Positions 1-27,179 of a DNA stretch of 64,000 bases are shown in pieces. Origin of the DNA: Rickettsiales bacterium. Its GTDB lineage: Bacteria > Pseudomonadota > Alphaproteobacteria > Rickettsiales > UBA3002. The first letter of the stretch is position 1. Each line of letters begins with the position of its first letter. The stretch is taken from the NCBI GenBank assembly GCA_037968615.1, contig JBBKVX010000009.1, positions 7,641-71,640 of the forward strand. Reading direction: 5' to 3'. The notes beneath the pieces are model-generated. The model had not been told where the DNA came from. It worked only from the letters and a program-made list of their open reading frames with translations, and did not search any database. Position numbers and translations under genes: made by a program.

Positions 1-1939
1 CCGCGTGGAACGCTGCGCCCTTGATGGCAGCTCGATCGCTGAAACTGACTGGTGGGTGGATCTCGAAGAACACATGGCGTCCGTCGCGGCTGCGATGCAC
101 ATGGCGGACGGCCATGCCATGCAGGCCGATGCGTGGTTTGGGGGTGCCTTCACCGTAGGGGCGGAGTCTCTCCTGCTGCAGAGCGAACGTATGCAGGGCT
201 TCGTCGGGGGTTTGAGTGGAGCCTTTGGCGGCCGCCGCGAAGTCCAATACACCCGCGAGGGGAATGCGTTGTGTTTCACGTGCGTTGATGGCCGCCTGCC
301 CCAATTTTTCTTCCAGACGCCGACGGATTGGTTCGAGCTGGGCCTGCTCGAAACTTGCGCCGGCGGCCATCGGATGCCCGCCGGCTTTCAACATGATATG
401 GTCTTCCTCGCACATGGCGCGCAATGCGGTTCCTAGATCGACGCTGTCGTTTGGCGTTTTCAGGCTACGGGCAGAGGCTTTGTAAACGCCGCTTTTTGCG
501 TTGAGGCTTGCGACCATGACGGGGCGGTTGAACTCCTCTTTTAGCCTGCCTGCGACGATGCCGATGACGCCCTCGTGCCAGTCGTCGCCGGCGATAAGCA
601 AGGTGCCGCAATCGGGGTGTTTCTCGACATAAGCGGATGCCTGCTTCCGCGCTTCGCGAAGCACTTGGTGCTCCACCAATTTGCGGCGCTGATTCGCCTC
701 GCGCGAACCGAGCATCAAACCGTATTGTTTGGCGTCGATCGCGATGCCCTCAGGCACTGGAACTGCTGCTGATTGCGCGGGCTTTTTCAGTTTGGCGCCG
801 ACGTTCGGGTCATTCGAAAATGACTGATATCTCGTTTGAAGATGGTCGTAGAGATCCATGTTCTGGCGACGATTTGCTCGCATCAGCGTTTCGGTGTGTG
901 TGGTCGTGGCTTCTGCTGGGCCGAGGAAGTTCCATGCCACCGACTGGTTTAGGCGACCGGGCGCGTTGATGATGGGCGTGAGCTGGAAAGAGATATCTTC
1001 TTCCGTGAGTTTCTTGGGATCGGGAATCTGCGCCACTTTAGCCAACGCCGTAATGTTGGGGTCGCGCCCTTCGCGTATCACTCTGAGCCCCTCATTCAGC
1101 AATGTGCGGTTCAGCGGGCGGCGGATATTTACCACATCGCCCTGCGTGGCAAGCGCCACCAGCCCAAGCCAGTCGCGCGGATTAGGCGCGGGCAGGGCTT
1201 TGGTGTAATGCCCTCTCGCCTTCAACATTTCAGCCGCTCGACGGCAGACCAGCCAAGTGACGCCAACCGCCGCAAGATCGCCCACACCGAGCGGATCGTT
1301 CTTGATGTCGTCGGGTTCGTCGCTGCGACGGGGGTTCACCACCAGCGCACCTTTAGGCAGGTCATGGCCGATGGAATTGGGGTGGTGGTCGATCACCGTC
1401 ACGTCCATGCCCAGTTCCTGCGCCAATCCCAATGGGGCGTTGGCCAGCGTGCCGTTATCCAGCGTCATCAGCAGGGAAACGTTCTTGTCGCGCATGGCTT
1501 CCACGGCTTCGCCATTGACGCCATAACCCTCGATCTCGCGGTTGGGAATATGCACGTCGATATGGTCGCGCGGTACGCCGGAAGCTTGCAGGAACCGCAC
1601 CATCAGGGCGGTGGAGCAGTTGCCGTCGCAATCGTAATCGCCGCTGATGCCGATGCGTTCGCCTTTTTGCACGGCGTCGGCCAGTCGCCCTGCGGCGGCG
1701 TCGAGATCCTTCAGTCGGTTGTAGCCGGGCAGAATATCGGTATCGAGGGTTGCATAGGAAACCGGCGCAAAGAAGGTGGCGGCGCTGGCTATGTCCATAT
1801 GGGGCATGGAGGCGACGGCAGCGACAAGCAACGGATCCGCATCGGGATATGTCCCGCGCAACAGCGTAGCAAGCCGCCGATCGGGGCGTGCGACCGTTAC
1901 ATGATGCTGGCGTACCGTCTGCGTAGGTGCCTTTTCCAT
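1..1939 (-). CDS. recJ: Single-stranded-DNA-specific exonuclease RecJ (3' end runs off the window start)
   Basis: My own minus-strand translation from ATG 1939 gives MEKAPTQTV...GISGDYDCDGNCSTAL...TVIDHHPN...GGHPMAAGASF, i.e. DHH and DHHA1 motifs. It is absent from the ORF track because there is no stop inside the window. The + ORFs 5..436 and 1208..2119 are its antisense shadows. The frame stays open upstream to a possible GTG, so the start is uncertain. Confidence 0.9.
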   Translation of the reverse strand, partial: MEKAPTQTVRQHHVTVARPDRRLATLLRGTYPDADPLLVAAVASMPHMDIASAATFFAPVSYATLDTDILPGYNRLKDLDAAAGRLADAVQKGERIGISGDYDCDGNCSTALMVRFLQASGVPRDHIDVHIPNREIEGYGVNGEAVEAMRDKNVSLLMTLDNGTLANAPLGLAQELGMDVTVIDHHPNSIGHDLPKGALVVNPRRSDEPDDIKNDPLGVGDLAAVGVTWLVCRRAAEMLKARGHYTKALPAPNPRDWLGLVALATQGDVVNIRRPLNRTLLNEGLRVIREGRDPNITALAKVAQIPDPKKLTEEDISFQLTPIINAPGRLNQSVAWNFLGPAEATTTHTETLMRANRRQNMDLYDHLQTRYQSFSNDPNVGAKLKKPAQSAAVPVPEGIAIDAKQYGLMLGSREANQRRKLVEHQVLREARKQASAYVEKHPDCGTLLIAGDDWHEGVIGIVAGRLKEEFNRPVMVASLNAKSGVYKASARSLKTPNDSVDLGTALRAMCEEDHIMLKAGGHPMAAGASFEQAQLEPIRRRLEEKLGQAAINARETQRIPLAGVLDFAAAAKGSTQTPDEALHTFALQQERLRPYGEGTPKPRIGLHGMAVRHVHRSRDGRHVFFEIHPPVSFSDRAAIKGAAFHA

Positions 1940-2115
1940 GCCGGGCTTATAGCGGTTCCGGCACGATTTGAATGTGACAGAACGGTGAAGTTTTTTTTCT
2001 TTGCTGGGATTCCTAATGGCCGCTTGGTAGCGGTGTTGGGAACAGACATGCACACAGCATGCAATTCAGGGGCTAAGCGACCAATGAAGCTACGTTACAA
2101 ACAGGGAAGAGAAGC

Positions 2116-4293
2116 ATGAGCCCCGAGCGCATTCTCGTGTTCGAGACGTCGGCGTTGCTGGCGACCCTGTCGCAATTCACCGATCCGCATACGCACTCGC
2201 CGGTAGCGCTAGAACGGCTGCTGCAAACTGCGCCCGGGCAACGCGCCCCCGTGGATCGGATCGTGATCCCCGACCATGTGTTCTATGAACTGAGCGGCCT
2301 GCTTCCCGTGTGTTTCCCCGAGATGCAGCGCAAGCTTGCCGCAGCACAGAACGATCCGAAAGCGCTTGATAGAGTGATCGATCTATACGTGCTGGCGTCG
2401 CCCCGTGGCGAGGTGAATGACCCACGCGGTGAGCAGAAAAGCCATATACGCGTGCTCCTAAAATTCATCGCGCAGCATCCCGACAGCCTCGTTCGCACGG
2501 ATACCAGCGAGGCCTATTGCCGCCGACTGATGGCGGATTACAATGGGCTAAGCAGCAACGGCGATTCCCTGAAACGCTACTGCCCCACTTTTGCCGATGC
2601 CTTCGCCCATCTGGACAAACAGTTCCAATCCACGGGCTTGCGCATCCATGCGGGACAGCTGCGCATGATGGGGTTGCTGAGCGAGGACGAATATAACGAA
2701 CGGCTCGATCGTCCGGAAACACCGCTCAGCAAGCAACAGCGTTTCTTCCTGAAAGGCGAGATGCTCGACAGGCTTGGCCGCAAGATCGAATCGCCTGGCA
2801 CGAAACCGGAACAAGCGCTGCTCACTCCCGGCTTCATCGAGAAAATGAAAAAGCAGGAAGAGGGCATCAAGGATACGAAATACGCCACCATCGGTTTCTT
2901 CCGGCGCCACCCAAAGATTCTCCAGTTGGCGCGGGAGCGTTATGAAAGCCCCTCCATCCGCGAGGAGCGCACGCAATGGAGCGACGAACAATGGCTGCAA
3001 CAGGCGCTGGGACCATCGCGTCTGCTGATGGAACATTATCTGTATGGTGGCATCATCCCGCCTTACAACCCATCGCTGCTGATCGCCGCGCAGACGCTCG
3101 GGTTCGACACAGCAGGCTTGAGTAAGAACAGTGATAGCGACGTGATCCGACGGCATCTCTACAATCAGGGGTTCTTTGAAGTGACGCCGGACCTGGAACA
3201 GTTGAACCGCATTGCGGCGGGCCTGAAAGCCGAGGGAATTGCCTCGAAGGAACTCGACGACCTGATCCAAGCTATACCCCAAGCGGGCAAGCAGCAGCAA
3301 ACGCGCTTCAACGCGGCGTGCAGCACTAAGGGTATCGTGCCGTACGAAAAAGTATTCAGCGACGGGTTGGTGAATGGCGCCATCGAATGGCCGCAGTTCT
3401 GGAAATTAGTGACGGCGGTGGATGGGTTGCACCATCAGAATGGCGGCTATATAGGCAGCAAGAGCGGCGACATTCTCGTCAAGCCTGGCGCCACGCCCGA
3501 TCAAAGCGCCATCCTCATACGGCAGGACGGGTTCACCAGCCGCGCTGGACTTACCGTGCCCGATCGCTTCATCAGCCATGCATCGCGCAGCGTGCATCTG
3601 GCCGGCAAGCAGGGAAATTATTATGAATTGCCCGCGATGGAGCTGGTGAAACGTTGCCGCGCAGGGCGGCTGGACCATAAACTCTCAAGCCGCCTGTACC
3701 GTGTGTTCGAGGCGATGTTGTATCCACCCATCGCGCGGGATGCGGTGGATGTGCGCAATGAAGCGCGGGGCATTCTGGGCGACGAACGTGTGGTGCAGTT
3801 GGAGAAAGATTTCGCCAACCGCCACGCGCGCAAGAGCCGAAAGGTCGAGCCTCCCTACCGTAGTCTGTTCTCGTCGCTGCATGTGAACGGGCGTCTCATG
3901 CGCAAGAATCTAGGGGAAGTGGCGACGCTGGAAGTGGCCGCCGCTGAGATGGACCAGTATCCCAATGCCCATGTCTGGTTGATAAACCACGACAGCGATC
4001 TGTTCCCCACTAAGCCCAGCAAAGGCGACATCCAGCTCGAGGATGCTATTGTGCGCCAGCATAGCGGGTTATGGTCGGGCGTGCGGCAGTTGAACGAACG
4101 TGTGGCGGGTAACGGCCACTTGCATCTCGTGCCGACGGCGCCTCAGTTTTTGAACGATATGCAGGTATTGATGGGCGGACAACCGCGCAGCGAGTACGAA
4201 GGCGTTAAAGCGAAGCAGATCATCACCCAGCATCGCAGCACCAGCTGGAGCGACACGGTGGCGCAGGACATGGCCGCGCAGCGTCACCGCTGA
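2116..4293 (+). CDS. Hypothetical 725-aa protein; putative PIN-like nuclease fold split by a ~530-aa insertion
   Basis: ATG 2116 follows the purine-rich stretch agggaagag, and third-position GC is coding-like. N-terminus ERILVFETSALLATL...DRIVIPDHVFYELSG and aa ~597-630 NLGEVATLEVAAAEMDQYPNAHVWLINHDSDL resemble the first and second halves of COG2405-type PIN proteins (vvDtSpLi..L....viP..V..El / lGEaeaiaLA....lliDD). I recognise nothing in the intervening sequence. Confidence 0.6.
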   Translation: MSPERILVFETSALLATLSQFTDPHTHSPVALERLLQTAPGQRAPVDRIVIPDHVFYELSGLLPVCFPEMQRKLAAAQNDPKALDRVIDLYVLASPRGEVNDPRGEQKSHIRVLLKFIAQHPDSLVRTDTSEAYCRRLMADYNGLSSNGDSLKRYCPTFADAFAHLDKQFQSTGLRIHAGQLRMMGLLSEDEYNERLDRPETPLSKQQRFFLKGEMLDRLGRKIESPGTKPEQALLTPGFIEKMKKQEEGIKDTKYATIGFFRRHPKILQLARERYESPSIREERTQWSDEQWLQQALGPSRLLMEHYLYGGIIPPYNPSLLIAAQTLGFDTAGLSKNSDSDVIRRHLYNQGFFEVTPDLEQLNRIAAGLKAEGIASKELDDLIQAIPQAGKQQQTRFNAACSTKGIVPYEKVFSDGLVNGAIEWPQFWKLVTAVDGLHHQNGGYIGSKSGDILVKPGATPDQSAILIRQDGFTSRAGLTVPDRFISHASRSVHLAGKQGNYYELPAMELVKRCRAGRLDHKLSSRLYRVFEAMLYPPIARDAVDVRNEARGILGDERVVQLEKDFANRHARKSRKVEPPYRSLFSSLHVNGRLMRKNLGEVATLEVAAAEMDQYPNAHVWLINHDSDLFPTKPSKGDIQLEDAIVRQHSGLWSGVRQLNERVAGNGHLHLVPTAPQFLNDMQVLMGGQPRSEYEGVKAKQIITQHRSTSWSDTVAQDMAAQRHR

Positions 4294-4294
4294 T

Positions 4295-7200
4295 TTAATG
4301 CCTTTGCTGCTGGCCTGCAGCGCGCAATGTTTTCAGTATTTCCTGCGGATCGATACCGTGCGCCTCGGCGCGCTGGAGCGATGCATCCAGTGATGGTCGT
4401 TTGCCTGTGCGTTTTGCAAACGATGCGCCTTTGGTTTCCGCAAATGCACTGAGTGCCGTACGCACATCATGCGCGCTGGCAAAACGATCGAACGCCATCT
4501 GACCACGCACCGCGGTGCGCACGAACGGCACCTGCAGGGTTTGCTCGCCACCTTCGTCGGGCGTGGCGGGCAGGTTCAAGCCCATCCCGACAGAGGCAAG
4601 GCGCAGCGCCGCCCATGCTTTAACACGCCCCACTTTGTCTTGCGGCAGGTCAATGGTGCAGGTGATGCCGGTGACATGCTTGTCGAGCGTGACGGTCTTG
4701 ACCATCGGCACGGCGAACAGGCGGCCAGCGGCGCGGTCCACCCACGCGTAGAGATGCGGTGGGATTTCCTTCGAGCGGTTCTTATGCTGGCACCACTGGT
4801 CGAACATTTTGCTCAACGCATCTGTGGGAATCTCGATTGCACCGTTCTGCATCAGCACGGGCTCGGCGCCGCCTTCCGCCAGTTGTTGCAGCACATGGCT
4901 GCGCAGCTGATCCTGCTGCGTGTCAATCAGTCGGCGGATGTTTGGCACCGTCTGTTCGTGCAAACCGACCATCTCGGGGTGGGTTCGGATCTTCTGGCCG
5001 ATCTCGCCGATCTGGGTGGCGCTCTCATCGCTCAACCGGCCGGCCATTGCCGAGTCTTGTTGCAGCATCACCAGCAAGCCCTGCAGGTCGCGCACATGGT
5101 GGTACTTTACCATCAGCAGATCGTGCGTTTCCTTCAGCACTTTTTCGACGGAGCTCAGCAATGCCTTGCGCTGTTTGAACACGTAATACGGGTCCATCAC
5201 ATTGTCGGTGAGCCGCTCGGATTCGCGCTGTTCGGTGCTGTAACGCTTGGCCATCAACAGCTCAAACACCCGTTCCTCATGGCCGGGTTCGTCGATGACC
5301 TGGAGATGCTCTTTAATGTTCTTACTGTCGAGGTCCACCTCCATGCCGATCCGCTCGCGCGTATGGGCTTTGCGGTTGCTGTCGAACGTGCGCTTACTGC
5401 TGTTGCTCAGCGCCCGTACAATTTTTTCTTCCTCCCATCCAGCGCGCGCGAAACAGTGGCTGGCCTGTTGTAGATAAGAGCGACGGTTCGCTTCGTCCTG
5501 CGGCGGTGTGATCTCTGACATGTTGAGATAATGGTTGCCACGCGTGGCGTAGGCACCGGTGATCTCGCTCTCGATGCTGGCGGCGATAGCGGGGTTCTGT
5601 GCGAGCCATGCTTCGGGTTCCTGCGGGCGCGACGAGGGCTGGGTTAGCAGGTCATATTGTTTCAGCAATTTTGTACCGGTCACATCCGATTTTTTTGCTT
5701 CCGAAAAACAGCTGCGCACATAATCGCGGGCCTCGGCGCTCCCATGCTCGCGGTAGAGGCGAATGATGGCGCCCTGTTGTTCGGGGCTGATCGCCTCGTA
5801 GGCTTCGGAGAGTAGGTAACGCAGTGCCGTGTCGGGCATGTCGCTCTGCTCGAGGGCAATGCCGCGCAACCTCCGGAATGCCGCGCGCCATGCATGGTTT
5901 TGAAATTCTGCTTCGCTCTTTTCCCCAAGCAAGGAAAGTGTTTTGTCTCGGTATGGTTGCATGAGAGTAGCAAGGTCGCTGCGTGGATCGTAGGCGGAGA
6001 GTTGCATCGCATATTCGTCCATCATGGTCGCCATGGCGCCGCCGACTTCCTGCAACAGCCCTCGGCTGTGGTCGCCGCCCAGAAGCGCCTTGCGCGCCAC
6101 CGCGATGTCCTCTTTCAGTTGCTTGCTGCCGAACGCTACGTTGCTGAGGCGCTCCTGCGCCGTGTGCACATCGCGGCGCGCATCCGCGCCCGCTACTTTC
6201 TTAAGAGTGTTCCCGGTGCCCGCCAGTTCGTGCAGCAGCAAGCCCAGGGTGGTCAGCTCCTGCTCAAGTTCCTGCGTCAGATCGATGCTGGTGGGGTCGG
6301 TGTTGAATTCGGCACCGCCCAGAAGCTGAAGATACTGGGTGAGCGCGCTGCTTAGGCGCAGCATTTTGTCCTGTTCGTGATGCACGGTCTCGCTGAGATG
6401 CACAAGATCCGCACGCCGCTCATCGACCTGTGTTGGATCCGGCAGATGCGTCTGCAAGCGGCGAATCGATCCATCTGCCGTCGTATCGGCCAGTTCGCGA
6501 TGCACCATCAGCATGTCGTTCATTAGGCGTGGCCGGTCGAGGAAGCTAAGCTGCGGCAGGTTCAGATGCACATGGGTGCCATCGGGCGTGAAGTCGATGC
6601 TTTCGGCCGCGACGCGTTGCGACCCGGTCGATTTGCTGAGTTCGTATAAGAACAGCGACGCTTTCTCTAGCATCGGCCGCATGGTGCGTTCGCTGTGCTT
6701 GCCCACCTGGAGGCGGTCTGCACCGCGCAGGGCAACATCCGCTTTCCGGCCAGCCAGCCGCGCCGCAAGCTGCAGAAGCACGGGATTGGCCGTCACCGTA
6801 AAACCACCATCCATTGTCGGTTCAATGTGAAAACGATGCGGGCCGACGATGTCGCTCTTCTCGACCACAAGCTCCTTCTTGCGGAAGGCGAGCTGCATGT
6901 CGGGCGCAGTCTGGTCGAGCTGATGCGCGGATTTCAACTGCCCTTCGGCCTGAGTGTGCGGCACCAGCCAGCATTCGCGTTTCTCGTTCATTTCCAGCGC
7001 GTCGCCATGGCCGCGCAGCAATTTTCCCTGCACTACCTTGAGGAATTCAGGTGGGGTTTTAGACGCGTCGTTATCCTTTACGCTTTCTTCCTGTGCCCGT
7101 TGCAGGGCGACCGACCAATGAAACGCGTTCTTCATCAGTTGGTGGATGTCGACCTTGATGCTGGTGTTGTAGGCTTTGAACGGAATGCCCAGTTGGTAAA

Positions 7201-9388
7201 GCAGCCCAAGCGTTTCCAGCGACACACCGTCGCGTTGGTCGATGGTGCCCATGTCGCCTTGTATGGAGATGCCGTACGTACCGGGCAGGCGCCCCAGTCG
7301 ATAGAGCAGCCAACTTGCGTCGCGCACGAGGTTGGAGGATTTTTCTCCCCGCGGGCCATCCTTTTCCATTGGATTCAGATCAGGGTAGTCGTGGAACGCT
7401 TCCATGGTTCCTGTCAGCACATATCGCGGCGATTGTTGTTGTGCGTGCGGGTCGGGCGTCGCCAGCCGCACGGCGATCGGGCCGTGCCGTGTGGTGATGC
7501 CTTGCGCCACCAGTTCCGCCAACGAGCGTTCGAGGCGGAATGCCATGGAGGCCAGCACCGTATCCGATACAACAAGCTGCATTTGGCCTTCAGGCGCAGG
7601 GCGTATCTGAACCATGGCGGGCGCGGCTGCTCTCTTGCTTGAGGCATCGTCGAGTTCTTCGGTGGCGTCGCTCTGCGTTTCTTCTTCTTGCTCGCTCGGC
7701 CCGAAACCGTTCACGTAGGGAATGGCGCCCAGCTTCAATTGCGACAGCAGATCCTGCTGAAGCGCAGGAATGGCCGCAAGAATCGAGGCGCCCACTGGCA
7801 GATGCAGCAGGCATTCCCCGAATGCCCGCTGGTGGCCCTTAATTCGGATATTGAGCGAGCCGTCGTCGCGTTCGCTTAACAGCACCATACCCACCCGGCG
7901 GTCTTTTTTACGCAGGGCCGCAATCAGCTGTAATAATTCCTCGGCTTGTGCCGGATGCGCGTTGATAAAGGCGAAATTGGCGCGCAGCGATGCGTAGGGC
8001 ACGCCTTCAATGGTGATACGTTCGCCGGATGCGTCGCGCGCATGGAGCACCACGTCCATTTTCGTGCCGGTCGAATCGAAGGGGGCAAGGGTATGGATGG
8101 TCGGGCTATCCATGACTTGCTGGAAGAAAATACATTTCTTGAGGAAGTTGATGGAAAGCGGGTTCTTACGCTCGGCGTTGATGATCACGCGATGATGCGT
8201 CCGGTCGATATCGACCAGATGATGCGGTGCGCGGCTGTTAACGCGCGTCACCTCATCGAAGCCTTCGAGGAAATGCCAGAAGCGCTGCGCTTTGTCGTCG
8301 AGCTTTTTCGGGTCCGCTGAAAAATTCAGTTGGACATCGCCCGCCACCCTATCCGGCTGGTGACGATGTTGGCGTTCGTCCAATGGCTCGGCCGTGGCTC
8401 CGTCATCGAACTTGCGCACCAGCTTATGGTACAGATCGGTCATGGTAGGGATGCTTCCGGTCGCATGGTCCTGCAGGCGCAGCGCCAGCCGCGCCGTCAT
8501 GGTTACATCCTCCACGGCCATATGCTCGTGCCGACCGCTGAATGCAGGATCGATCAGCGAGCGATACGCGTCGTCGAGCGTGTTGCTGGCGCCGAAACCT
8601 TTTTCGGCGAGGTAGCCGTGGTAAAGGCAGCGGTAGCTGGCGGAGTTACGGTAGGGTTCGGCCACCTGTGTCACGGCATGCATCAACCCAACGAGCCGCG
8701 CTTGCTGGGTGGGGTTTGCCTCGGCGTAGGAAACGGTTTCCAATTCGCGCAATGCTTTTTTAACGTCGTTCGGTAATCCACGCAGATTATGCTGTAGCGT
8801 CTGGTGCCGATCGGCGCGCGCCAGGTCGTGCGCCTGCACATCTTCCTGAAGTTTTCCGAGGAATGGCAGGTCGAAAGGCGCGTTGTAATACACGTCGCGC
8901 GTCCCGCTACGGGTGAACGCCATGAATTCCGGCAGCACCTCGTAGAAAGGCGCTGCGGACACTTTCTTGCCTTTGACCTTAAGCCCGGTGATGGGGCCAT
9001 CCAAAGGCTTGCGGATGATCTCGGTACCGGTAACTTCCAGTGCTTTGGGGTCGATCTCGTATTCGTAACGGCGACGGTCGTAAGGCGGTGCCGGCTTCTT
9101 TTCTGCGGCGGCTTTGTGGCACAATGCGAGGTAATCGCGGAATTCCGGTTTCAGCGGCAGCACATAGCTTTGGAACAATTTAAGTTTCGGTTCGCCGTTC
9201 TCAACCACCGCGCGGGTGGAGGCGATTTCCGTCACCCCGTGGCGCTCTCGCGATAAGCCGGTCGTTTCGGTATCGGAAACAGAGATATCCAGCGCGGCAA
9301 GTTCAGCGATTTCCTGTGCGGGCACACGCGGTGAGCCATCCGGTGTGCGGGCGTGGGTGATGTCCGTAATGTAGGTGCCTGTGTGCAT
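4295..9388 (-). CDS. Giant 1697-aa protein with N-terminal DEDDh (DnaQ/epsilon-like) 3'-5' exonuclease domain; remainder unknown
   Basis: ExoI VSDTETTGL, ExoII YYNAPFDLPFL and ExoIII HMAVEDVTM (H-x4-D) all lie in the first ~300 aa. The remaining ~1350 aa are helix-rich with no motif I recognise. A GAGGGG purine run lies just upstream of ATG 9388. Confidence 0.8.
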   Translation of the reverse strand: MHTGTYITDITHARTPDGSPRVPAQEIAELAALDISVSDTETTGLSRERHGVTEIASTRAVVENGEPKLKLFQSYVLPLKPEFRDYLALCHKAAAEKKPAPPYDRRRYEYEIDPKALEVTGTEIIRKPLDGPITGLKVKGKKVSAAPFYEVLPEFMAFTRSGTRDVYYNAPFDLPFLGKLQEDVQAHDLARADRHQTLQHNLRGLPNDVKKALRELETVSYAEANPTQQARLVGLMHAVTQVAEPYRNSASYRCLYHGYLAEKGFGASNTLDDAYRSLIDPAFSGRHEHMAVEDVTMTARLALRLQDHATGSIPTMTDLYHKLVRKFDDGATAEPLDERQHRHQPDRVAGDVQLNFSADPKKLDDKAQRFWHFLEGFDEVTRVNSRAPHHLVDIDRTHHRVIINAERKNPLSINFLKKCIFFQQVMDSPTIHTLAPFDSTGTKMDVVLHARDASGERITIEGVPYASLRANFAFINAHPAQAEELLQLIAALRKKDRRVGMVLLSERDDGSLNIRIKGHQRAFGECLLHLPVGASILAAIPALQQDLLSQLKLGAIPYVNGFGPSEQEEETQSDATEELDDASSKRAAAPAMVQIRPAPEGQMQLVVSDTVLASMAFRLERSLAELVAQGITTRHGPIAVRLATPDPHAQQQSPRYVLTGTMEAFHDYPDLNPMEKDGPRGEKSSNLVRDASWLLYRLGRLPGTYGISIQGDMGTIDQRDGVSLETLGLLYQLGIPFKAYNTSIKVDIHQLMKNAFHWSVALQRAQEESVKDNDASKTPPEFLKVVQGKLLRGHGDALEMNEKRECWLVPHTQAEGQLKSAHQLDQTAPDMQLAFRKKELVVEKSDIVGPHRFHIEPTMDGGFTVTANPVLLQLAARLAGRKADVALRGADRLQVGKHSERTMRPMLEKASLFLYELSKSTGSQRVAAESIDFTPDGTHVHLNLPQLSFLDRPRLMNDMLMVHRELADTTADGSIRRLQTHLPDPTQVDERRADLVHLSETVHHEQDKMLRLSSALTQYLQLLGGAEFNTDPTSIDLTQELEQELTTLGLLLHELAGTGNTLKKVAGADARRDVHTAQERLSNVAFGSKQLKEDIAVARKALLGGDHSRGLLQEVGGAMATMMDEYAMQLSAYDPRSDLATLMQPYRDKTLSLLGEKSEAEFQNHAWRAAFRRLRGIALEQSDMPDTALRYLLSEAYEAISPEQQGAIIRLYREHGSAEARDYVRSCFSEAKKSDVTGTKLLKQYDLLTQPSSRPQEPEAWLAQNPAIAASIESEITGAYATRGNHYLNMSEITPPQDEANRRSYLQQASHCFARAGWEEEKIVRALSNSSKRTFDSNRKAHTRERIGMEVDLDSKNIKEHLQVIDEPGHEERVFELLMAKRYSTEQRESERLTDNVMDPYYVFKQRKALLSSVEKVLKETHDLLMVKYHHVRDLQGLLVMLQQDSAMAGRLSDESATQIGEIGQKIRTHPEMVGLHEQTVPNIRRLIDTQQDQLRSHVLQQLAEGGAEPVLMQNGAIEIPTDALSKMFDQWCQHKNRSKEIPPHLYAWVDRAAGRLFAVPMVKTVTLDKHVTGITCTIDLPQDKVGRVKAWAALRLASVGMGLNLPATPDEGGEQTLQVPFVRTAVRGQMAFDRFASAHDVRTALSAFAETKGASFAKRTGKRPSLDASLQRAEAHGIDPQEILKTLRAAGQQQRH

Positions 9389-9453
9389 ACGCCCCTCAAA
9401 GGAGCCGACACCCTACCCATAAATCCGCGCTACAGTGTGACAGGTTTATGAAT

Positions 9454-9482
9454 ATTATACGGTTAGTTATGTGTTTGGCTCA
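9454..9482 (-). promoter_or_regulatory. Candidate sigma70-type promoter for the 1697-aa gene
   Basis: Perfect TATAAT on the minus strand (plus-strand attata, 9454..9459), ~65 nt upstream of ATG 9388. Only a weak -35 candidate (tgagcc) sits 17 nt further upstream. Confidence 0.3.
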
Positions 9483-9549
9483 TGCTCCGTGCCCAAGCCA
9501 TGCGTAAAGTGGGTAACGCTCCACTCAGCAAGCATCAGGAAGGGTGTTT

Positions 9550-11226
9550 TTATTCTTCGATCGCGTCCCCTTCTTCGGGCTCGGCGGGGAGGGCGAGGGT
9601 GATTTTTTGGTAATCGTTGGCGCTGGTGCCTTTTTCCATGTGGGGGGTGCTGGCGATACCGTGCGCGTCGAGGCGGGTGGCGATCAGGCTGCTGCGGCGC
9701 GCGGGCAGGGAGCGTGCGTTGTCGAGCGGCTGGCTGGCACCCACGCGGTCGTAGGCGATCAGCTCCACTTGGGCGATGCCCCAGCGGTCGAGCGCCCAGA
9801 TAGCGTTTTCCAAATTCTCAAGCCCGGTTTTGCCCAGCGCGTCGGAGCCATAAGGGAACTCGATGTCAGCGAGGCGCGAGGTGGGGGGAATGATTTTGAT
9901 ATGCAGCGTGTCGAAGCGGCCGGAGAGGTCTTCTTCCATTTTGCGATACAGGCCGAGATTGCCGCCAGTGACGGGTTTGGGGCGGATGACGAACGCCGAA
10001 GGCGAGTCGCTCACCGGCGCCACATCGGCCGGGATGGGCAGCGCGTCGCGCAGCATGGTGAGGGAGTCGATCGACTTGCCTTTGATGGCGCTATCGACGG
10101 GCGAGACGGGGGCGGCGAGCGCGTTCTGCGGCACTTGCATGGCCAGTGATTTCGCGCGTTCGGGGTTTTTGCTGATCACCAGCTGGTCGATGGCCAGCGT
10201 CACTTTCCGCTCTAGCGCGGGCTCCAGTTTGGCAAGGATCGTATCCTGCGCATCGGTGTCGTATTGCTTGGTCAGCACCACGGTTTCGATGGTCACTTCG
10301 TCGTCCTGCCCGAAGGCGATGTGGAAAAGTTCCACGCGTGCGGGCGGGGTAGCCTTGGCGAAATAATCGCTGATGATGCCGCGTGCGGTGCGGGTGGTCA
10401 CGGTTTCCGACGCGATGTTTTTCAGCGAGCTGCCGAGGGGGAAGGAAAGGATGGCGAACACCAGTAACACCGCGATGATCTGCCATTTGCTGTAGTGCCG
10501 CGTTTGGCGCGTGGCGAAACCATACCACAGGGCAAGCAGCGTCACCGTCAGCGCGATGGCGAGCAAGTTGGTCATGAACAGGAAGAAGCTGCCAGTGGCC
10601 ACAGCGGCTTTGCCGGTGGCCAGCCCATAGCCCACCACGGCCAAAGGCGGCATCAGCGCGGTGGCGATGGCCACGCCCACCAGCGTTTCACCTTTGCGTT
10701 TGATCACGGCATAGCCCCCGGCAATGGCCGAGAACACCGCGATCACCAGATCCAGCAGGTTGGGGCTGGTGCGTGCTAAAATTTCTGGCGTCGGATCGTT
10801 CAGCGGCGACAGCGACACCAAAATGAACGACACCGCAATCGACATCACCGTGCCGATAAGCAGCGCCTCAAGGCTTTTGCGCACCAGTCGCAGGTCCATC
10901 ACGCACAGGCCGAAACCCAGCGCCATAATGGGCGACATGAGCGGCGACATAAGCATCGCGCCGATGACGACGGCGGGCGAGGATTGCAGCAGCCCCATGG
11001 TGGCCACGCCGCAGGAAAGCACGGCCATGAGCGAGTAGCGCGAGGTCATACGGCCTTCGCCGGAAACATATTCGATGATCTGTGTGCGTTCTTCGAAGGG
11101 CAGGCGCTGCATGCGCAATTTGCGGCGGATGAAGATAAGTGCGGCAATGGTTGCCACGTTCACCTGTTCGCGCGTCGGCATGGCTTGCTTAATGTGTGCA
11201 AGGATCTTTTCCCGAATGGGGTGCAT
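9550..11226 (-). CDS. DUF389 (TIGR00341-type) membrane protein with long soluble C-terminal extension
   Basis: Core SPAVVIGAMLMSPLMSPIMALGFGLCV plus several further TM segments. I prefer ATG 11226 (MHPIREKILAHIKQ...) to the track start 11310, whose first 28 aa look non-coding. About 270 aa of non-membrane sequence follow the TM core. Confidence 0.75.
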   Translation of the reverse strand: MHPIREKILAHIKQAMPTREQVNVATIAALIFIRRKLRMQRLPFEERTQIIEYVSGEGRMTSRYSLMAVLSCGVATMGLLQSSPAVVIGAMLMSPLMSPIMALGFGLCVMDLRLVRKSLEALLIGTVMSIAVSFILVSLSPLNDPTPEILARTSPNLLDLVIAVFSAIAGGYAVIKRKGETLVGVAIATALMPPLAVVGYGLATGKAAVATGSFFLFMTNLLAIALTVTLLALWYGFATRQTRHYSKWQIIAVLLVFAILSFPLGSSLKNIASETVTTRTARGIISDYFAKATPPARVELFHIAFGQDDEVTIETVVLTKQYDTDAQDTILAKLEPALERKVTLAIDQLVISKNPERAKSLAMQVPQNALAAPVSPVDSAIKGKSIDSLTMLRDALPIPADVAPVSDSPSAFVIRPKPVTGGNLGLYRKMEEDLSGRFDTLHIKIIPPTSRLADIEFPYGSDALGKTGLENLENAIWALDRWGIAQVELIAYDRVGASQPLDNARSLPARRSSLIATRLDAHGIASTPHMEKGTSANDYQKITLALPAEPEEGDAIEE

Positions 11227-11333
11227 GGTCTCGACTTTCGAAAGGGGTGGGCCTCGGCCCCTAAAGGGGAAGACAAACGCAGTTCTTATCTCTATTCGTA
11301 GCCATAGCAAATTTTTAGCCCATAGGAAATGAT

Positions 11334-13631
11334 ATGAGCGTCACTGTCTCGCGCAAATTGTCCAACTCGTTCGAAGGCGCTTTGGCCGGGGGTGGCGATC
11401 CCGCCACCTCGCCGCTTTATGTGTTCGGCCCGTTCCTCCGCCTCATCGTGGTGGCGGGCGTGGCGCAGGTCACGTTCGGAGCCACGGTGTGGCTCGCGGT
11501 GTTCACGGTCATCATGGTCTCGGCCATGTACCGTCAGGTGATGCGTTGGGTGACCGACGGCAGCGGCGGCAGCGGGCTGAGCGAGGAAGAGTTCGGCGGC
11601 TGGGCAGTCAAAATCAACGCAGGCATCACCGTCATTGAGTACCTGCTCACCTTTATGGTGAGCATGGCCGCGCTGGTGACCTTCATCGCCGACCGATTCC
11701 CCATGCTCAACGAAACCATCTTCGGCCTGCAGTACCGCGTGTTCCTTGCTGTGGTGTTAAGCCTCTTCACCTGCTGGCTGGTCAATCTGGGCCCCAAAAT
11801 TTCGGCGCGGGCATTCGGCCCAGCCACTGCCGCCATTCTGATACTGCTGTGGGGCATGGTGTTCGCCACTATCTACACGGCGGGTTTCCACTTGCCCGGT
11901 ATCGACCTGAAAGCCTTCTCGCTCGACACGGTTACCTTCGCCAACGTGGCCGGGGAAACCGAGACCAGCTCCTACCTGAACCTCACCCTTGGCGGCTACG
12001 CGCGCATTCTCGCGCTGATGACCGGGGTGGAAATTTTTGCCAACCTTGTCGCGGCCTACGAAGGCAAACGCGCCGACCGCAGCCGCAAGGCCTTCGGTAG
12101 CCTCGTCATCATCATGGGCACCACGGCCATCACCATGCTCATCGTCGGGCCGATGATCCTGCAGGTCTCCGACCCGCTCAACACCCATGTCTCCGTCTTC
12201 ACCCAGACGATGGATCATTTGTTCCCTGCATGGCTCTCCTACGCCGGTACGCTCATTGGCGTGGCGGTGCTGCTCTCCGCTTGTGCGGCGGCGGCGCAGG
12301 GCGTGCAGAACCTGTCGCTCGGTTTGCGGTATCGCCATTATGTGAGCGCCAAGCTCGGTCAGCGCAACAAGCACGATGTGGCGGGCCGCCCGGTGTGGCT
12401 GATGGCGGTGGTGTGCATCGCCTGCTTCGTGCTGTTCGGCACGCATGAGGAAACCTACCTCGCGCTGTATGCGGCGGGTGTGTTCATCCTGCTCAGCATG
12501 ACGGGCTGGGCGGCCTCCAAACGTCTGGGCCGCGAACTGCGCGCGGCATTCACCGTGCCCAAAGCGCTCATGCTGCTGGGCACCGTCCTCGCCGCAATGC
12601 TGACGAGCTTTGCCACCGCCATCATTTTCGAAGAACGCTTCTATGAGGGCGCGTGGTCGTATCTCATCCTCGTGCCCGTCTTCTACGGCATCTTCAGCTA
12701 TTACCGCACCCGCCTTGGTGCCCCGCCTTCGGTCGAGGACCGGCTTGGGCTGGTGGTTTCCGGGCAGGGCTACCTGCCGCAGGTCATGGAAGGCGCGTCT
12801 GGACAGAGCGCGTCGTTCTCGCGCATCGTGGTGCCGTTGAATGGTAGCGTCTATGCCGAGCAGTTACTGCCCCTCATCCATTCCTTCGCGCGCAGTTACC
12901 AAGCGAATATTTCATTGCTGATGGTCGATGACCGCGAGGAGCGCAAGTCCGATGGGCAAAGCGAGTATCTGGAAGTGATCGGCGAAATGCTGAGTGGCGA
13001 GGGCGTCACCGCCAGCCACGCGGTGCGCAGTGGCGAAGCCTCCAAAGCCATCGATGCCTACGCGCAGGAGATCCACGCCCACCTCATCGTGATGGCCACC
13101 AACGAAATTAGCGTTGCCAACAAGATTCTGCCGGAAAAACTGGTCGCCAACGTCATCCGCAAAACGCTCACGCCCACCTTGGTAGTGCGCCCGTCCGAGC
13201 ATTGGCGCAGCCGTCATTCGCGTTTCCAACGCATCCTCGTGGCGCTTGATGGGTCGGAGGCGGCGGAGGCCGTGCTGCCCTACATCCGCACGCTGGCCAA
13301 GAAGTTCAACAGCACTGTGCTGCTGCTTTCGGTGCCGGAAGGTTCGGAATCGGAGGAGTACGCCACCACCATCCAGCGCTATCTGGAAGACATCGCCGCG
13401 CGGCTAACGCGTGAAGGCGTCAGCGTCACCACCTCCTTCTCCGGCTCCGGCCCCGCGCGCACCATCCTTGCCACCGCCGAGCACGAGAATTCTGACCTCA
13501 TCATGATGGCGTCGCATGGTCGCGGCGGCATTGCGCGTGCCAGTATTCACTTGGGCAGCGTGAGCGAGAAGGTGATCCAATCCACCCTATGCCCGGTCTT
13601 CATCGTGCCGCTCACGCGCAGCCACAGCTAG
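11334..13631 (+). CDS. APC-superfamily permease fused to two C-terminal universal stress protein (UspA) domains
   Basis: About 470 aa with around 12 hydrophobic segments (GGDPATSPLYVFGP...). Two USP modules follow: RIVVPLNGS...AHLIVMATNE and RILVALDGSE...DLIMMASHGRGG...GSVSEKV. Confidence 0.8.
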   Translation: MSVTVSRKLSNSFEGALAGGGDPATSPLYVFGPFLRLIVVAGVAQVTFGATVWLAVFTVIMVSAMYRQVMRWVTDGSGGSGLSEEEFGGWAVKINAGITVIEYLLTFMVSMAALVTFIADRFPMLNETIFGLQYRVFLAVVLSLFTCWLVNLGPKISARAFGPATAAILILLWGMVFATIYTAGFHLPGIDLKAFSLDTVTFANVAGETETSSYLNLTLGGYARILALMTGVEIFANLVAAYEGKRADRSRKAFGSLVIIMGTTAITMLIVGPMILQVSDPLNTHVSVFTQTMDHLFPAWLSYAGTLIGVAVLLSACAAAAQGVQNLSLGLRYRHYVSAKLGQRNKHDVAGRPVWLMAVVCIACFVLFGTHEETYLALYAAGVFILLSMTGWAASKRLGRELRAAFTVPKALMLLGTVLAAMLTSFATAIIFEERFYEGAWSYLILVPVFYGIFSYYRTRLGAPPSVEDRLGLVVSGQGYLPQVMEGASGQSASFSRIVVPLNGSVYAEQLLPLIHSFARSYQANISLLMVDDREERKSDGQSEYLEVIGEMLSGEGVTASHAVRSGEASKAIDAYAQEIHAHLIVMATNEISVANKILPEKLVANVIRKTLTPTLVVRPSEHWRSRHSRFQRILVALDGSEAAEAVLPYIRTLAKKFNSTVLLLSVPEGSESEEYATTIQRYLEDIAARLTREGVSVTTSFSGSGPARTILATAEHENSDLIMMASHGRGGIARASIHLGSVSEKVIQSTLCPVFIVPLTRSHS

Positions 13632-18897: not shown

Positions 18898-18977
18898 GAG
18901 TTAGGCATACGCTATTTTCAGGTTCGATGTCGCGCAAATTATTGCTCTTCCATCCTGCTATTAGCAGCCGGTCTGCG

Positions 18978-19718
18978 TTAATTCTGGATCTGGAATTCCC
19001 GCACGCGATTGCTGCCGTAGCGCACGAATTCGTACTCGAACGGCGTGCCGGATTCGTAGTAGCGGAAGCTGTTCACGTAGCGCGCATCCAGTGGCTGCAC
19101 GCCATAGACGGCCACTTTATACGAGGTTTCGTCCTCGATATGGTTGGGCACCGCCAACGAGAAGGCGGCGAAATCCACCGCAAGCCCGACCGTGTCCCGT
19201 ACATTGCTCGGGCCGAAGAACGGCAGCACGATGTAGGCGCCCGAGCCTACGCCCCACACGCCAAGTGTCTGCCCGAAATCTTCCGACTGGCGTTGCAGGC
19301 CCATTTCCGTGGCGACGTCGAACGTGCCGAGCAGCCCGACGGTGGTGTTCACCACGAAGCGGCCCAGCGTGGTGCCGGATTTGCCTGCATCGGCTTGCAG
19401 CACCGAGTTGGTGAAGTTCTTGAACTCGCCCACGTTCTCGAAGAAGCGCGACACGCGGCTGCGCAAGAATTGCGGCGTGACGTAGGTGTACGCATCCACC
19501 ACGGGCAGCAGGAAGTAGCGGTCGAGCTGCGCGTTGAACGTGTACAGGCTGCGGTTCATACCCTCCAGCGGGTCGCTCACGGCGAATTGCTGCTCGGCTT
19601 TTTCTTTCTGTTGCAGATCGATGTAGCCACGCACAGGCGTGGTGGTGCCTACATAGGGGTCTTCCGCACAGGCGGTGAGCAGCAGCGCGACGGCGAGCAT
19701 GGGAAGCAGGCGGATCAT
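18978..19718 (-). CDS. mlaA: MlaA/VacJ family outer-membrane lipoprotein
   Basis: Lipobox LLLTAC, then DPLEGMNRSLYTFNAQLDRYFLLPVVDAYTYVTP...VNTTVGLLGTFDVA, which is typical of MlaA. Confidence 0.85.
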   Translation of the reverse strand: MIRLLPMLAVALLLTACAEDPYVGTTTPVRGYIDLQQKEKAEQQFAVSDPLEGMNRSLYTFNAQLDRYFLLPVVDAYTYVTPQFLRSRVSRFFENVGEFKNFTNSVLQADAGKSGTTLGRFVVNTTVGLLGTFDVATEMGLQRQSEDFGQTLGVWGVGSGAYIVLPFFGPSNVRDTVGLAVDFAAFSLAVPNHIEDETSYKVAVYGVQPLDARYVNSFRYYESGTPFEYEFVRYGSNRVREFQIQN

Positions 19719-21055: not shown

Positions 21056-21075
21056 AGTTCCCCAGACAAAAAGAC

Positions 21076-21092
21076 GGCCCCGGTGTGGGGCC
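21076..21092 (-). terminator. Rho-independent terminator after the RND operon
   Basis: On the minus strand: GGCCCC-acacc-GGGGCC followed by gtcttttt, 73 nt downstream of the OMF stop at 21165. Confidence 0.6.
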
Positions 21093-21164
21093 TCGGTAAA
21101 AAAGCATCTTACGCTATAAGCGCATAAATAGATCGTATGTTCGTTCGCATTTGCGAAAGAAAAA

Positions 21165-27072: not shown

Positions 27073-27113
27073 ACAAATTGCTCTTTTTTGGCTATTTTTG
27101 TTAATGACTTTAT

Positions 27114-27131
27114 ACATACATTCATGTATGT
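27114..27131. promoter_or_regulatory. Perfect 8-bp inverted repeat, candidate TetR-family operator
   Basis: ACATACAT-tc-ATGTATGT in the AT-rich divergent intergenic region between the MFP gene and the TetR gene. Confidence 0.55.
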
Positions 27132-27179
27132 TGGCAATAGAAGTTTCGGCAACGCAACATTAAATAAAAGCAATAATTC

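What the first reader, a model, noticed from the sequence alone, without database searches (positions are those of the whole stretch)
4295..9388. 1697-aa orphan protein with a DnaQ-like DEDDh exonuclease head and ~1350 aa of unrecognisable sequence
All three Exo motifs, with their catalytic residues, are intact (DTETTG, NAPFD, H-x4-D). The spacers between motifs look longer than I remember for epsilon. The exonuclease is fused to a very large helix-rich region with no motif I can place. Proteins of this size carrying a 3'-5' exonuclease are not part of the standard replication or repair repertoire. Possibilities include a defence or anti-plasmid nuclease, or a secreted effector. The C-terminus is net positively charged (...KRTGKRPS...LRAAGQQQRH), but that is weak evidence.
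Basis: partly seen in the sequence, partly recalled or inferred. Interest (0 to 1): 0.65.

Follow-up and report, generated by a model that had tools for sequence, protein, structure and literature searches.

The report
Giant exonuclease scaffold of a multi-nuclease machine
This 1,697-residue protein is real but is not an orphan: it is the 3'-5' exonuclease-bearing core of a rare, undescribed gene cluster in uncultured Alphaproteobacteria, where it always sits beside a RecJ-type 5'-3' exonuclease and a second unknown protein, each of which is fused to it in some relatives.

Summary
The ORF (4295-9388, minus strand, 1,697 aa) and its three DEDDh motifs are confirmed. Independent metagenome assemblies show no indels, and synonymous SNPs dominate.

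"Orphan" is wrong. About 35 family clusters exist, all unnamed and all from Alphaproteobacteria MAGs.

The remaining ~1,350 aa fold confidently (pLDDT 87-91) but match nothing in Pfam, PDB or BFVD. An exhaustive scan of 1.84 billion representative proteins finds this region only in the family.

The giant gene is always clustered with a ~725-aa unknown partner (window 2116-4293, +) and a long RecJ paralog (window 2-1939, -, cut by the window edge). A ~490-aa fourth gene is sometimes present but is absent here.

Two independent fusions tie the parts together. RecJ is fused to the giant's N-terminus in P0062, P0064, P0066 and P0068. The partner is fused to its C-terminus in P0061 and P0067.

No P-loop, signal peptide, SOS box, mobile element or defence island is present, and composition matches the host.

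Best reading: a cytoplasmic, ATP-independent complex that combines exonucleases of opposite polarity on a novel scaffold. The complex is well supported. Its substrate and biological role (repair, DNA disposal or defence) are inferred.

The parts
4295..9388 (-). Giant protein, 1,697 aa (including stop codon 4295-4297): DEDDh exonuclease head plus novel scaffold
   Evidence: ORF and translation; 30 full-length homologs; confirmed in independent assemblies with no indels; 10 synonymous and 6 non-synonymous SNPs
8414..9388 (-). aa 1-325: DEDDh 3'-5' exonuclease domain (Exo I D39/E41, Exo II N169/D173, Exo III H289/D294) with two large inserts
   Evidence: Pfam RNase_T; PADLOC DEDDh; Foldseek match to RNase T and TREX1 homolog; catalytic residues invariant or nearly so
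7703..8401 (-). aa 330-562: highly conserved alpha/beta region of unknown fold (motifs NSRxPxH, INAERKxPLS, DSTGT, SLRAN, KGHxRxFGE)
   Evidence: AF2 pLDDT mostly above 90; no PDB match beyond the exonuclease domain; invariant H390, K418, N471 and nearly invariant D445, H519
7601..7702 (-). aa 563-596: acidic low-complexity linker (net -6)
   Evidence: pLDDT below 50 from aa 563; charge; variable in the alignment
4298..7600 (-). aa 597-1697: C-module. Alpha/beta domains (about aa 597-960), all-helical core (about 960-1500), alpha/beta domains (about 1510-1640), basic tail
   Evidence: AF2 pLDDT 86.9, pTM 0.68; no significant PDB or BFVD fold match; no internal sequence repeats
2116..4293 (+). 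Partner protein, 725 aa, unknown fold; convergent with the giant gene, stop codons 1 nt apart
   Evidence: Adjacent to the giant gene in L001-L004, L006, L007, L008 and L010; 20 homolog clusters, none named or carrying a precomputed Pfam domain; fused to the giant's C-terminus in P0061 and P0067; 12 synonymous and 3 non-synonymous SNPs
2..1939 (-). RecJ-like 5'-3' exonuclease paralog (DHH-DHHA1-RecJ_OB). First 646 aa only; the gene runs off the left edge of the window
   Evidence: tblastn; start at ATG 1939; Pfam DHH, DHHA1 and a sub-threshold RecJ_OB (RecJ_OB passes in the L002 ortholog); PDB RecJ 8y30 at 3e-40; TIGR00644 at 318.6 bits; catalytic motifs conserved; fused to the giant in P0062, P0064, P0066 and P0068
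1940..2115 (.). Divergent intergenic region between the RecJ-like and partner genes (presumed promoters)
   Evidence: Sequence; no SOS box; no sigma-70 consensus match in this interval
9389..9549 (-). Upstream region of the giant gene: SD GAGGGG (9397-9392), TATAAT (9459-9454)
   Evidence: Sequence; no SOS box

Best explanation
The 1,697-aa protein is the central subunit of a previously undescribed, chromosomally encoded, cytoplasmic multi-nuclease complex confined to a few lineages of uncultured Alphaproteobacteria. Its N-terminal 325 aa are an active-looking DEDDh 3'-5' exonuclease. The other ~1,350 aa are a well-folded novel scaffold. The N-terminal end of the giant works with a RecJ-type 5'-3' single-strand DNA exonuclease, and its C-terminal end works with a 725-aa partner of unknown fold. 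Many relatives add a fourth ~490-aa protein, which is absent from this window.

Proposed mechanism: the complex holds a DNA end or a single-stranded region and degrades it with both polarities at once, 3'-5' by the DEDDh head and 5'-3' by RecJ. It does this without an ATP-driven motor, so functionally it resembles exonuclease VII or a helicase-less RecBCD/AddAB.

Shown: the ORF, the catalytic motifs, the fold of the head, the conserved gene trio, both fusions, purifying selection, and the absence of P-loops.

Inferred: physical complex formation, DNA rather than RNA as substrate, simultaneous dual-polarity action, and the biological role. I lean towards a lineage-specific DNA repair or DNA-disposal function over mobile immunity.
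For: (1) DEDDh residues are invariant or nearly invariant across relatives at 26-67% identity, and the fold matches RNase T/TREX1.
(2) The gene trio is conserved in every locus with enough flank: window, L001, L002/L004, L003, L006, L007, L008, L010 and L014. Matching longest-contig lengths pair at least 10 further giant and partner clusters.
(3) Rosetta-stone fusions: DHH-DHHA1-RecJ_OB lies N-terminal to the DEDDh and core regions in P0062, P0064, P0066 and P0068. The partner is fused C-terminally in P0061 and P0067 (E = 4e-56 and 3e-53).
(4) The RecJ-like protein is a paralog, not the housekeeping gene: L001 also carries a canonical 605-aa recJ next to hom and glpX. It keeps the DYDxDG, DHH, NAxGR and GGHxxAxG motifs in both separate and fused forms.
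(5) The giant, partner and fourth-gene families are all similarly rare (30-35, 20 and 15 clusters) and occur nowhere else among 1.84 billion representative proteins.
(6) No P-loop and no TM segment in any of the three proteins.
(7) The giant's GC matches the host contig to within about 1.3 points in six of seven loci (42-57% GC) and in the window (59.2% versus 60.1%). RSCU correlation with neighbouring window genes is 0.96. Flanks are housekeeping genes, with no integrases or defence genes.
(8) Synonymous SNPs are in excess.
Against: - No biochemical or structural evidence for a complex; co-folding could not be run.
- Substrate type is not established. DEDDh and DHH enzymes also act on RNA, nanoRNA and dinucleotides.
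- The scaffold and partner have no recognisable DNA-binding, helicase or wedge element, so how a duplex would be opened is unknown.
- The distant fused forms (L015, L016) lack a detectable partner and fourth gene within 10 kb, so the partner is not universally required.
- No SOS box in any of the 12 promoter regions examined, which gives no support to a damage-inducible repair role.
- No transcript data.
- In L015 the giant gene's GC is about 6 points above the rest of the locus.
- Rarity and the facultative accessory gene are also compatible with an accessory or defence function.
Confidence: 0.55

Rival explanations
1. It is an anti-phage or anti-plasmid defence system. The complex recognises and destroys invading linear or single-stranded DNA with two exonucleases. 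The partner and the fourth gene act as sensor and accessory effector.
For: Multi-nuclease gene cassettes with giant unknown subunits are typical of defence systems. The accessory gene is facultative. The family is very rare and patchy. The PADLOC Cas-associated DEDDh model matches the head. Flanking genes differ between loci.
Against: No PADLOC system-level match for the giant or the partner. No neighbouring defence, integrase or transposase genes in the window or in 8 other loci. GC and codon usage are ameliorated to hosts in six of seven loci spanning 42-57% GC. The family is restricted to Alphaproteobacteria rather than spread across phyla. No ATPase or other sensor-type domain.
Confidence: 0.22
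2. It is an RNA or oligonucleotide turnover machine. The DEDDh head (RNase T/Orn-like) and the DHH protein (NrnA-like) degrade RNA, nanoRNA or linearised cyclic-dinucleotide signals on a degradosome-like scaffold.
For: The best structural matches of the head are RNase T. DHH-family enzymes include nanoRNases and cyclic-dinucleotide phosphodiesterases (established knowledge; PMC5593865 and PMC6256023 appeared). A possible HD-type phosphohydrolase is the fourth gene (H103/H141-D142/E145 invariant; weak Pfam HD hit, E = 0.05).
Against: The DHH protein is specifically RecJ-like. It scores 318.6 bits against TIGR00644 recJ even though truncated, matches PDB RecJ at 3e-40, and carries a RecJ_OB domain, which nanoRNases lack. 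RNase T itself also acts on DNA.
Confidence: 0.12
3. It is a secreted or injected effector nuclease. It would be exported through a C-terminal basic signal, for example by a type IV secretion system.
For: The basic C-terminal tail in the window (net +4 over 57 aa). Some source MAGs are labelled Rickettsiales. A TPS-domain gene lies next to the L001 copy.
Against: No signal peptide or TM segment. No secretion-system genes in the 64-kb window. The tail charge is weak and variable. The C-terminus is internal in the giant-partner fusion. Conserved coupling and fusion to a RecJ paralog. The TPS neighbour is not conserved.
Confidence: 0.03
4. It is a replication proofreading subunit (a DnaQ/epsilon paralog) with a lineage-specific extension.
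For: The DEDDh motifs. One relative (P0020) is labelled 'DNA polymerase III epsilon subunit-like' by JGI.
Against: No NCBIfam epsilon or DEDD equivalog comes near its cutoff (best 21 bits against 454). The nearest folds are RNase T and TREX1 rather than epsilon. There is no polymerase gene in the neighbourhood. The conserved partners are RecJ and unknown proteins.
Confidence: 0.02

Closest known systems
DEDDh (DnaQ-like) 3'-5' exonucleases: RNase T, TREX1, Pol III epsilon, ExoI/ExoX
   Same: The N-terminal 325 aa have the RNase H-like fold and all five catalytic residues (D39, E41, D173, H289, D294). Pfam RNase_T is above its gathering score.
   Different: There are two large inserts (134 and 116 residues between motifs). 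Sequence similarity is very low (13-17% identity to RNase T in Foldseek). The domain is fused to ~1,350 aa of novel structure. No family-level (equivalog) match.
RecBCD / AddAB / AdnAB end-processing machines
   Same: Two nucleases that attack strands of opposite polarity are united in one large complex or polypeptide of about 3,000 aa in total.
   Different: No helicase or ATPase: no P-loop in any subunit. The nucleases are DEDDh and DHH, not PD-(D/E)xK. No sequence or fold similarity.
Exonuclease VII (XseAB)
   Same: An ATP-independent enzyme that degrades single-stranded DNA from both the 5' and 3' ends. This is the closest functional analogy for the activity proposed here.
   Different: ExoVII uses one type of catalytic subunit with an unrelated fold and small XseB subunits (own knowledge; PMC2566859 was listed). 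There is no homology.
DEDDh domains fused to larger machines: exonuclease-DinG (S. aureus), PolC, WRN, Cas2-DEDDh
   Same: An N-terminal DEDDh exonuclease is appended to a large nucleic-acid-processing protein (PMC12345164). The PADLOC Cas-associated DEDDh model matches.
   Different: The appended part here is not a helicase, polymerase or Cas protein, and it has no known fold.
RecJ in complexes (Deinococcus RecJ-HerA, archaeal GAN-CMG)
   Same: A long-form RecJ (about 750 aa, DHH-DHHA1-OB plus a C-terminal extension) is recruited into a larger assembly (PMC4663267 was listed).
   Different: The partner here is a DEDDh giant protein rather than a HerA or CMG helicase. The RecJ is a dedicated paralog with a large insert between the DHH and DHHA1 domains in the window, L002, L003 and L014 copies.

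Membership tests
DEDDh (DnaQ-like) exonuclease superfamily (domain level) | Exo I motif D-x-E | tested here: met
   D39-T-E41 in DTETTG. At least 90% conserved in the family.
DEDDh (DnaQ-like) exonuclease superfamily (domain level) | Exo II motif with catalytic Asp | tested here: met
   N169-A-P-F-D173. Both N169 and D173 are invariant.
DEDDh (DnaQ-like) exonuclease superfamily (domain level) | Exo III motif H-x4-D (the 'h' subtype) | tested here: met
   H289-MAVE-D294. Both are invariant.
DEDDh (DnaQ-like) exonuclease superfamily (domain level) | RNase H-like alpha/beta fold; profile match above the curated threshold | tested here: met
   Pfam PF00929 at 24.6 bits against a cutoff of 24, found in 18 of 24 members. 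Foldseek matches RNase T with probability 1.0 and TM (target-normalised) 0.56-0.61.
DNA polymerase III epsilon (DnaQ) proofreading subunit | Equivalog-level profile match; about 240 aa with a Pol III alpha-binding C-terminus | tested here: not met
   No NCBIfam epsilon model was hit. The best DEDD equivalog scored 21 bits against a cutoff of 454. The architecture is entirely different.
RecJ family (for the neighbouring gene at 2-1939) | DHH motifs I-IV, the DHHA1 GGGH-type motif and the RecJ OB domain | tested here: met
   Pfam DHH and DHHA1 pass. RecJ_OB is below threshold in the truncated window copy but passes in the L002 ortholog. The motifs DYDxDG, DxG, DHH and GGHxxAxG are conserved. PDB RecJ matches at 3e-40.
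RecJ family (for the neighbouring gene at 2-1939) | Equivalog score for housekeeping recJ (TIGR00644, at least 396.9 bits) | tested here: inconclusive
   318.6 bits, but the window copy lacks its C-terminus. L001 carries a separate canonical recJ, so this gene is a paralog.
Known anti-phage defence systems (PADLOC-DB v2) | Match of the component proteins to models of a described system | tested here: not met
   Only the generic Cas-associated DEDDh domain model matches the head. The partner has no match.
PIN-domain nucleases (for the 725-aa partner; a lead from memory) | Profile or fold match to a PIN domain with four conserved acidic residues | tested here: inconclusive
   The termini resemble PIN motifs: (E/D)10-T-S, invariant Y57-E58, invariant G600-E601, and D626-S-D628 (D626 invariant, D628 nearly so). 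However, Pfam scans of each family member, the full-length family profile against PDB, and an insert-deleted mini-profile against PDB all gave no PIN hit.
HD-domain phosphohydrolases (for the facultative fourth gene, absent from the window) | The H...HD...D/E metal-binding motif with a profile match | tested here: inconclusive
   H103, H141-D142 and E145 are invariant in 16 sequences. One member hits Pfam HD over that region at E = 0.051. There is no PDB or precomputed Pfam match.
RecBCD/AddAB-type helicase-nucleases | SF1 helicase motor (Walker A/B) plus a PD-(D/E)xK nuclease | tested here: not met
   No P-loop in the giant protein, the partner or the RecJ-like protein. No Pfam helicase or nuclease hit.
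Type IV secretion effectors | A free, basic C-terminal translocation signal, and a secretion system in the genome | tested here: inconclusive
   The tail charge is weak and variable, and the terminus is internal in P0061. No T4SS genes in the window. The rest of the genome was not available.

The most novel reading that the evidence does not exclude
The trio is a new class of motor-less nucleic-acid-processing machine. About 2,000 residues of previously unseen folds (the giant's scaffold plus the partner) position a DEDDh exonuclease and a RecJ exonuclease to attack DNA with both polarities. This would give these Alphaproteobacteria either a RecBCD/AddAB-independent end-resection and DNA-disposal pathway or a new kind of innate immunity. 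The partner and the fourth protein could be further, cryptic nuclease or phosphohydrolase subunits (PIN-like and HD-like).
Probability: 0.3. Interest if true: 0.8.

Novelty: new variant of a known kind. Interest (0 to 1): 0.62.

Why it matters
The two catalytic heads, DEDDh and RecJ, are textbook enzymes. I found no description of them coupled on a giant scaffold, in four full-text searches plus one paper checked.

The two reciprocal gene fusions give unusually strong purely genomic evidence that three proteins totalling about 3,200 aa act as one machine.

More than 2,000 aa of it fold confidently yet have no relative in Pfam, PDB or BFVD. The family is therefore a source of new folds and possibly new nuclease chemistry.

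If the dual-polarity, ATP-independent mechanism holds, it would add a new solution to DNA end processing or disposal alongside RecBCD, AddAB, AdnAB and ExoVII. It would also give a handle on the DNA metabolism of poorly known, uncultured Alphaproteobacteria.

Tried and rejected
- **Sequence and profile searches of the giant protein.** Pfam, NCBIfam, PADLOC and PDB sequences gave only the exonuclease head.
- **Fold searches.** Foldseek of the C-module against PDB and BFVD gave only long-helix noise (SMC, Rad50, SbcC, tape-measure, pore-forming toxins) with TM of 0.11 or less. I rejected these as evidence.
- **Internal repeats.** An hhalign all-against-all of 10 sub-domains found none; the best probability was 25%.
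- **PIN hypothesis for the partner.** Not supported by the family profile or the insert-deleted mini-profile against PDB, nor by Pfam. Kept only as a lead.
- **HD hypothesis for the fourth gene.** Only the motif pattern and one weak Pfam hit support it.
- **+ strand ORFs at 858-1208 and 1208-2119.** At first I took these for the ~495-aa fourth gene. tblastn showed they are shadows of the RecJ-like gene on the minus strand.
- **SOS regulation.** No GTTC-N7-GTTC or GAAC-N7-GAAC site in 12 promoter regions.
- **Promoter and terminator consensus scan.** No more sites than in shuffled sequence.
- **Rfam.** Nothing in the window.
- **Small ORFs next to the fourth gene in L013 and L014.** Unrelated to each other.
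- **RNA-seq evidence.** None available.
- **Literature.** Four full-text searches and one paper checked found no description of the family.
- **First trimmed profile (A5).** I rebuilt it as A6.
Full report
**1. Observation**

The window holds one uninterrupted ORF on the minus strand, 4295..9388, of 1,697 codons. Its ATG is preceded by GAGGGG and, about 65 nt upstream, by TATAAT. Homologs start at the same Met.

N169, D173, H289 and D294 are invariant, and D39/E41 are conserved in at least 90% of 24-30 relatives.

Pfam RNase_T just passes its gathering score (24.6 against 24 bits) and is detected in 18 of 24 family members. PADLOC's DEDDh model gives 4e-10.

The gene is not an assembly artefact. 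Contigs from two runs of a sediment metagenome cover positions 1-11,500 with substitutions only, with no indels or joints. Of the variants, 10 of 16 in the giant gene and 12 of 15 in its neighbour are synonymous. That indicates purifying selection on real coding sequence.

**2. Structure of the protein**

I split the protein at the acidic linker (aa 563-596). Both halves gave confident AlphaFold2 models with only about 30 aligned sequences:
- aa 1-570: pLDDT 90.7, pTM 0.89.
- aa 590-1697: pLDDT 86.9, pTM 0.68.

The first ~320 aa match RNase T and a TREX1 homolog (Foldseek probability 1.0, E about 3e-4, 13-17% identity).

Nothing else matches. The alpha/beta region aa 330-562 and the whole C-module have no significant hit in PDB or in BFVD. 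The C-module comprises alpha/beta domains to about aa 960, a helical core at 960-1500, and alpha/beta domains at 1510-1640. The best matches are long-helix noise with TM of 0.11 or less.

Sequence and profile searches against PDB, Pfam and NCBIfam are equally empty. There are no internal sequence repeats, no P-loop and no hydrophobic segment.

**3. Not an orphan**

The word-indexed search found 30 relatives at 26-67% identity, almost all full length at 1,546-2,102 aa (four are shorter or truncated).

An exhaustive HMMER scan of 1.84 billion representative proteins, using a profile of aa 345-1000 only (no exonuclease), found 35 proteins. All of them belong to this family of giants. So the unknown region exists nowhere else.

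Every named member is a 'hypothetical protein' from an Alphaproteobacteria or 'Rickettsiales bacterium' MAG. Full-text literature searches found no description of the family.

**4. Context: the key result**

In three distant loci the giant gene is followed, tail to tail, by an unknown gene of 720-830 aa. Next comes an unknown gene of 490-505 aa, and then, divergently, a 750-790-aa DHH-DHHA1-RecJ_OB protein.

In the window, the same RecJ-like gene lies on the minus strand from ATG 1939 to beyond the left edge. It matches PDB RecJ at 3e-40 and TIGR00644 recJ at 318.6 bits. The + strand ORFs at 858-1208 and 1208-2119 are its shadows.

The 725-aa ORF at 2116-4293 (+) is the conserved partner. Its stop codon lies 1 nt from the giant gene's stop. 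The ~490-aa gene is absent from the window.

Across all fetched loci, the trio of giant, partner and RecJ-like genes is present wherever the contig is long enough: window, L001, L002/L004, L003, L006, L007, L008, L010 and L014. Identical longest-contig lengths link at least 10 further giant and partner clusters.

L001 also carries a canonical 605-aa recJ next to hom and glpX, so the cluster's RecJ is a dedicated paralog. It keeps all the DHH and DHHA1 catalytic motifs.

**5. Rosetta-stone fusions**

Two independent fusions tie the neighbours to the giant protein:
- **RecJ at the N-terminus.** Four distant members carry a RecJ-type module directly N-terminal to the DEDDh and core regions: P0064 (2,389 aa) and P0068 (2,288 aa) with DHH, DHHA1 and RecJ_OB; P0066 (2,885 aa) with DHH and RecJ_OB; and P0062 (2,037 aa, N-terminally partial) with DHHA1 and RecJ_OB.
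- **Partner at the C-terminus.** P0061 (2,518 aa) and the fragment P0067 carry the partner fused to the C-terminus of the giant (partner profile E = 4e-56 and 3e-53). In the P0061 locus a RecJ-like gene follows with a 4-nt overlap, and then the fourth gene.

Each neighbour is therefore found covalently joined to the giant protein in some lineage, at opposite ends. This is the strongest genomic evidence available for a single physical and functional unit.

The fused RecJ-giant forms in L015 and L016 stand alone among housekeeping genes, with no detectable partner or fourth gene within 10 kb. The DEDDh-scaffold plus RecJ pair is therefore the minimal core.

**6. What kind of element it is**

- The giant gene's GC matches its host contig to within about 1.3 points in six of seven loci (42-57% GC). 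In L015 it is about 6 points higher. In the window it is 59.2% against 60.1% overall.
- Its codon usage correlates at 0.96 with other window genes.
- Flanks are housekeeping genes that differ from locus to locus. In the window they are DUF389, Usp, MscS, def, RND and MacAB efflux, GltBD and histidine kinases.
- There are no integrases, transposases, secretion systems or recognised defence genes.
- There is no alphaproteobacterial SOS box in any of the 12 promoter regions examined.
- There is no Rfam element in the window, and no RNA-seq data are available.

**7. Mechanism**

Shown:
- An intact DEDDh 3'-5' exonuclease head.
- An intact RecJ-type 5'-3' exonuclease paralog.
- Obligatory genomic coupling of the two, plus fusions.
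- No ATPase motif anywhere.
- Cytoplasmic-type sequences.

Inferred: the proteins assemble, with RecJ at the giant's N-terminal end and the partner at its C-terminal end, into a complex that degrades DNA with both polarities without a motor. Functionally this resembles exonuclease VII or a helicase-less RecBCD/AddAB.

I lean towards a lineage-specific DNA repair or DNA-disposal role, because of the ameliorated composition, the housekeeping contexts and the restriction to one class. A defence role is a serious rival: the family is rare, it is modular, and multi-nuclease cassettes are typical of defence. An RNA or oligonucleotide role cannot be excluded. The secreted-effector and proofreading readings are disfavoured.

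Two leads could not be confirmed with the tools left:
- The partner's termini look PIN-like, but the profiles found nothing.
- The fourth protein has an invariant H...HD...E pattern and one weak Pfam HD hit, but no PDB or Pfam support.

**8. Verdict**

The 'orphan' label is wrong.

What is there is the core subunit of an undescribed multi-nuclease system. It has known catalytic heads, a new architecture and new folds. I rate it a new variant of a known kind, of moderately high interest. Its biological role remains open.

Noticed in passing
window 858-1208 and 1208-2119 (+): Two + strand ORFs of 116 and 303 aa with no Pfam hit. They are shadow ORFs lying antisense to the RecJ-like gene (minus strand, 2-1939) and are not genes.
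   Followed up: yes
window 4291-4297; L001 15776-15793; L002 15043-15046; L003 15331-15332: The convergent giant and partner genes meet tail to tail with essentially no spacer: a 1-nt gap in the window, an 18-nt overlap in L001, a 4-nt overlap in L002, and abutting in L003. This leaves no room for terminators, so each transcript must run into the other gene. In L014 the same two genes are fused in frame instead. The regulatory meaning is unknown.
   Followed up: partly
C-termini of giant-family proteins (P0004-P0030, P0051-P0055) and of the window's partner (P0031): Most family members end in Arg (...QR, ...RQR, ...GR, ...KR). The window copy ends ...QQQRH, and the window's partner ends ...QRHR. 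A conserved C-terminal Arg might be a docking or degradation signal. Unexplained.
   Followed up: no
L001 18029-19516, L002 17352-18815, L003 17827-19344, L007 about 7342-8880, L013 1-972, L014 10540-11964: A fourth, facultative cluster gene of about 470-505 aa with invariant H103, H141-D142, E145 and E149 (HD-phosphohydrolase-like pattern). It has no Pfam label and only 15 clusters in the database. It is absent from the window, L008 and L010.
   Followed up: partly
window 2988-3033 (partner gene): Seven strain-level substitutions within 46 nt in run X2, all synonymous. This is a second strain haplotype at a contig end, and it shows strong constraint on the partner protein.
   Followed up: partly
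window 54196-54285 (-): ARAGORN calls a 90-nt tRNA-Ala (CGC) inside the 1,144-aa CHASE3/GAF hybrid histidine kinase ORF (53106-56540). Rfam finds no tRNA there, so it is probably a false positive.
   Followed up: partly
window 35659-43249: A cluster of Alpha-E (35659-36612), GATase_4 plus transglutaminase (38044-39909) and transglutaminase plus DUF2126 amidoligase (39974-43249). From memory, this resembles the bacterial Alpha-E/transglutaminase/amidoligase gene neighbourhoods proposed for peptide synthesis or modification. Not part of this finding.
   Followed up: no
window 19715-21325 (-), 21499-22308 (-), 25912-27348 (+), 33695-34795 (-), 18927-19757 (+): Several ORFs of 270-540 aa with no Pfam match. 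Some may be spurious in this 60% GC sequence, for example 25912-27348 next to acrB.
   Followed up: no
window 11334-13631 (+): A 765-aa protein in which Pfam recognises only Usp domains (two matched stretches, the best at aa 631-759). Most of the N-terminal region is unassigned.
   Followed up: no
L015 8138-9581: A 1.4-kb stretch without any called gene immediately upstream of the RecJ-giant fusion gene P0068. It contains no SOS box and was not examined further.
   Followed up: no
L001 6252-9854: A 1,200-aa TPS-domain (two-partner secretion) protein lies directly upstream of the giant gene in L001 only. It is not conserved in other loci, so it is probably coincidental.
   Followed up: partly
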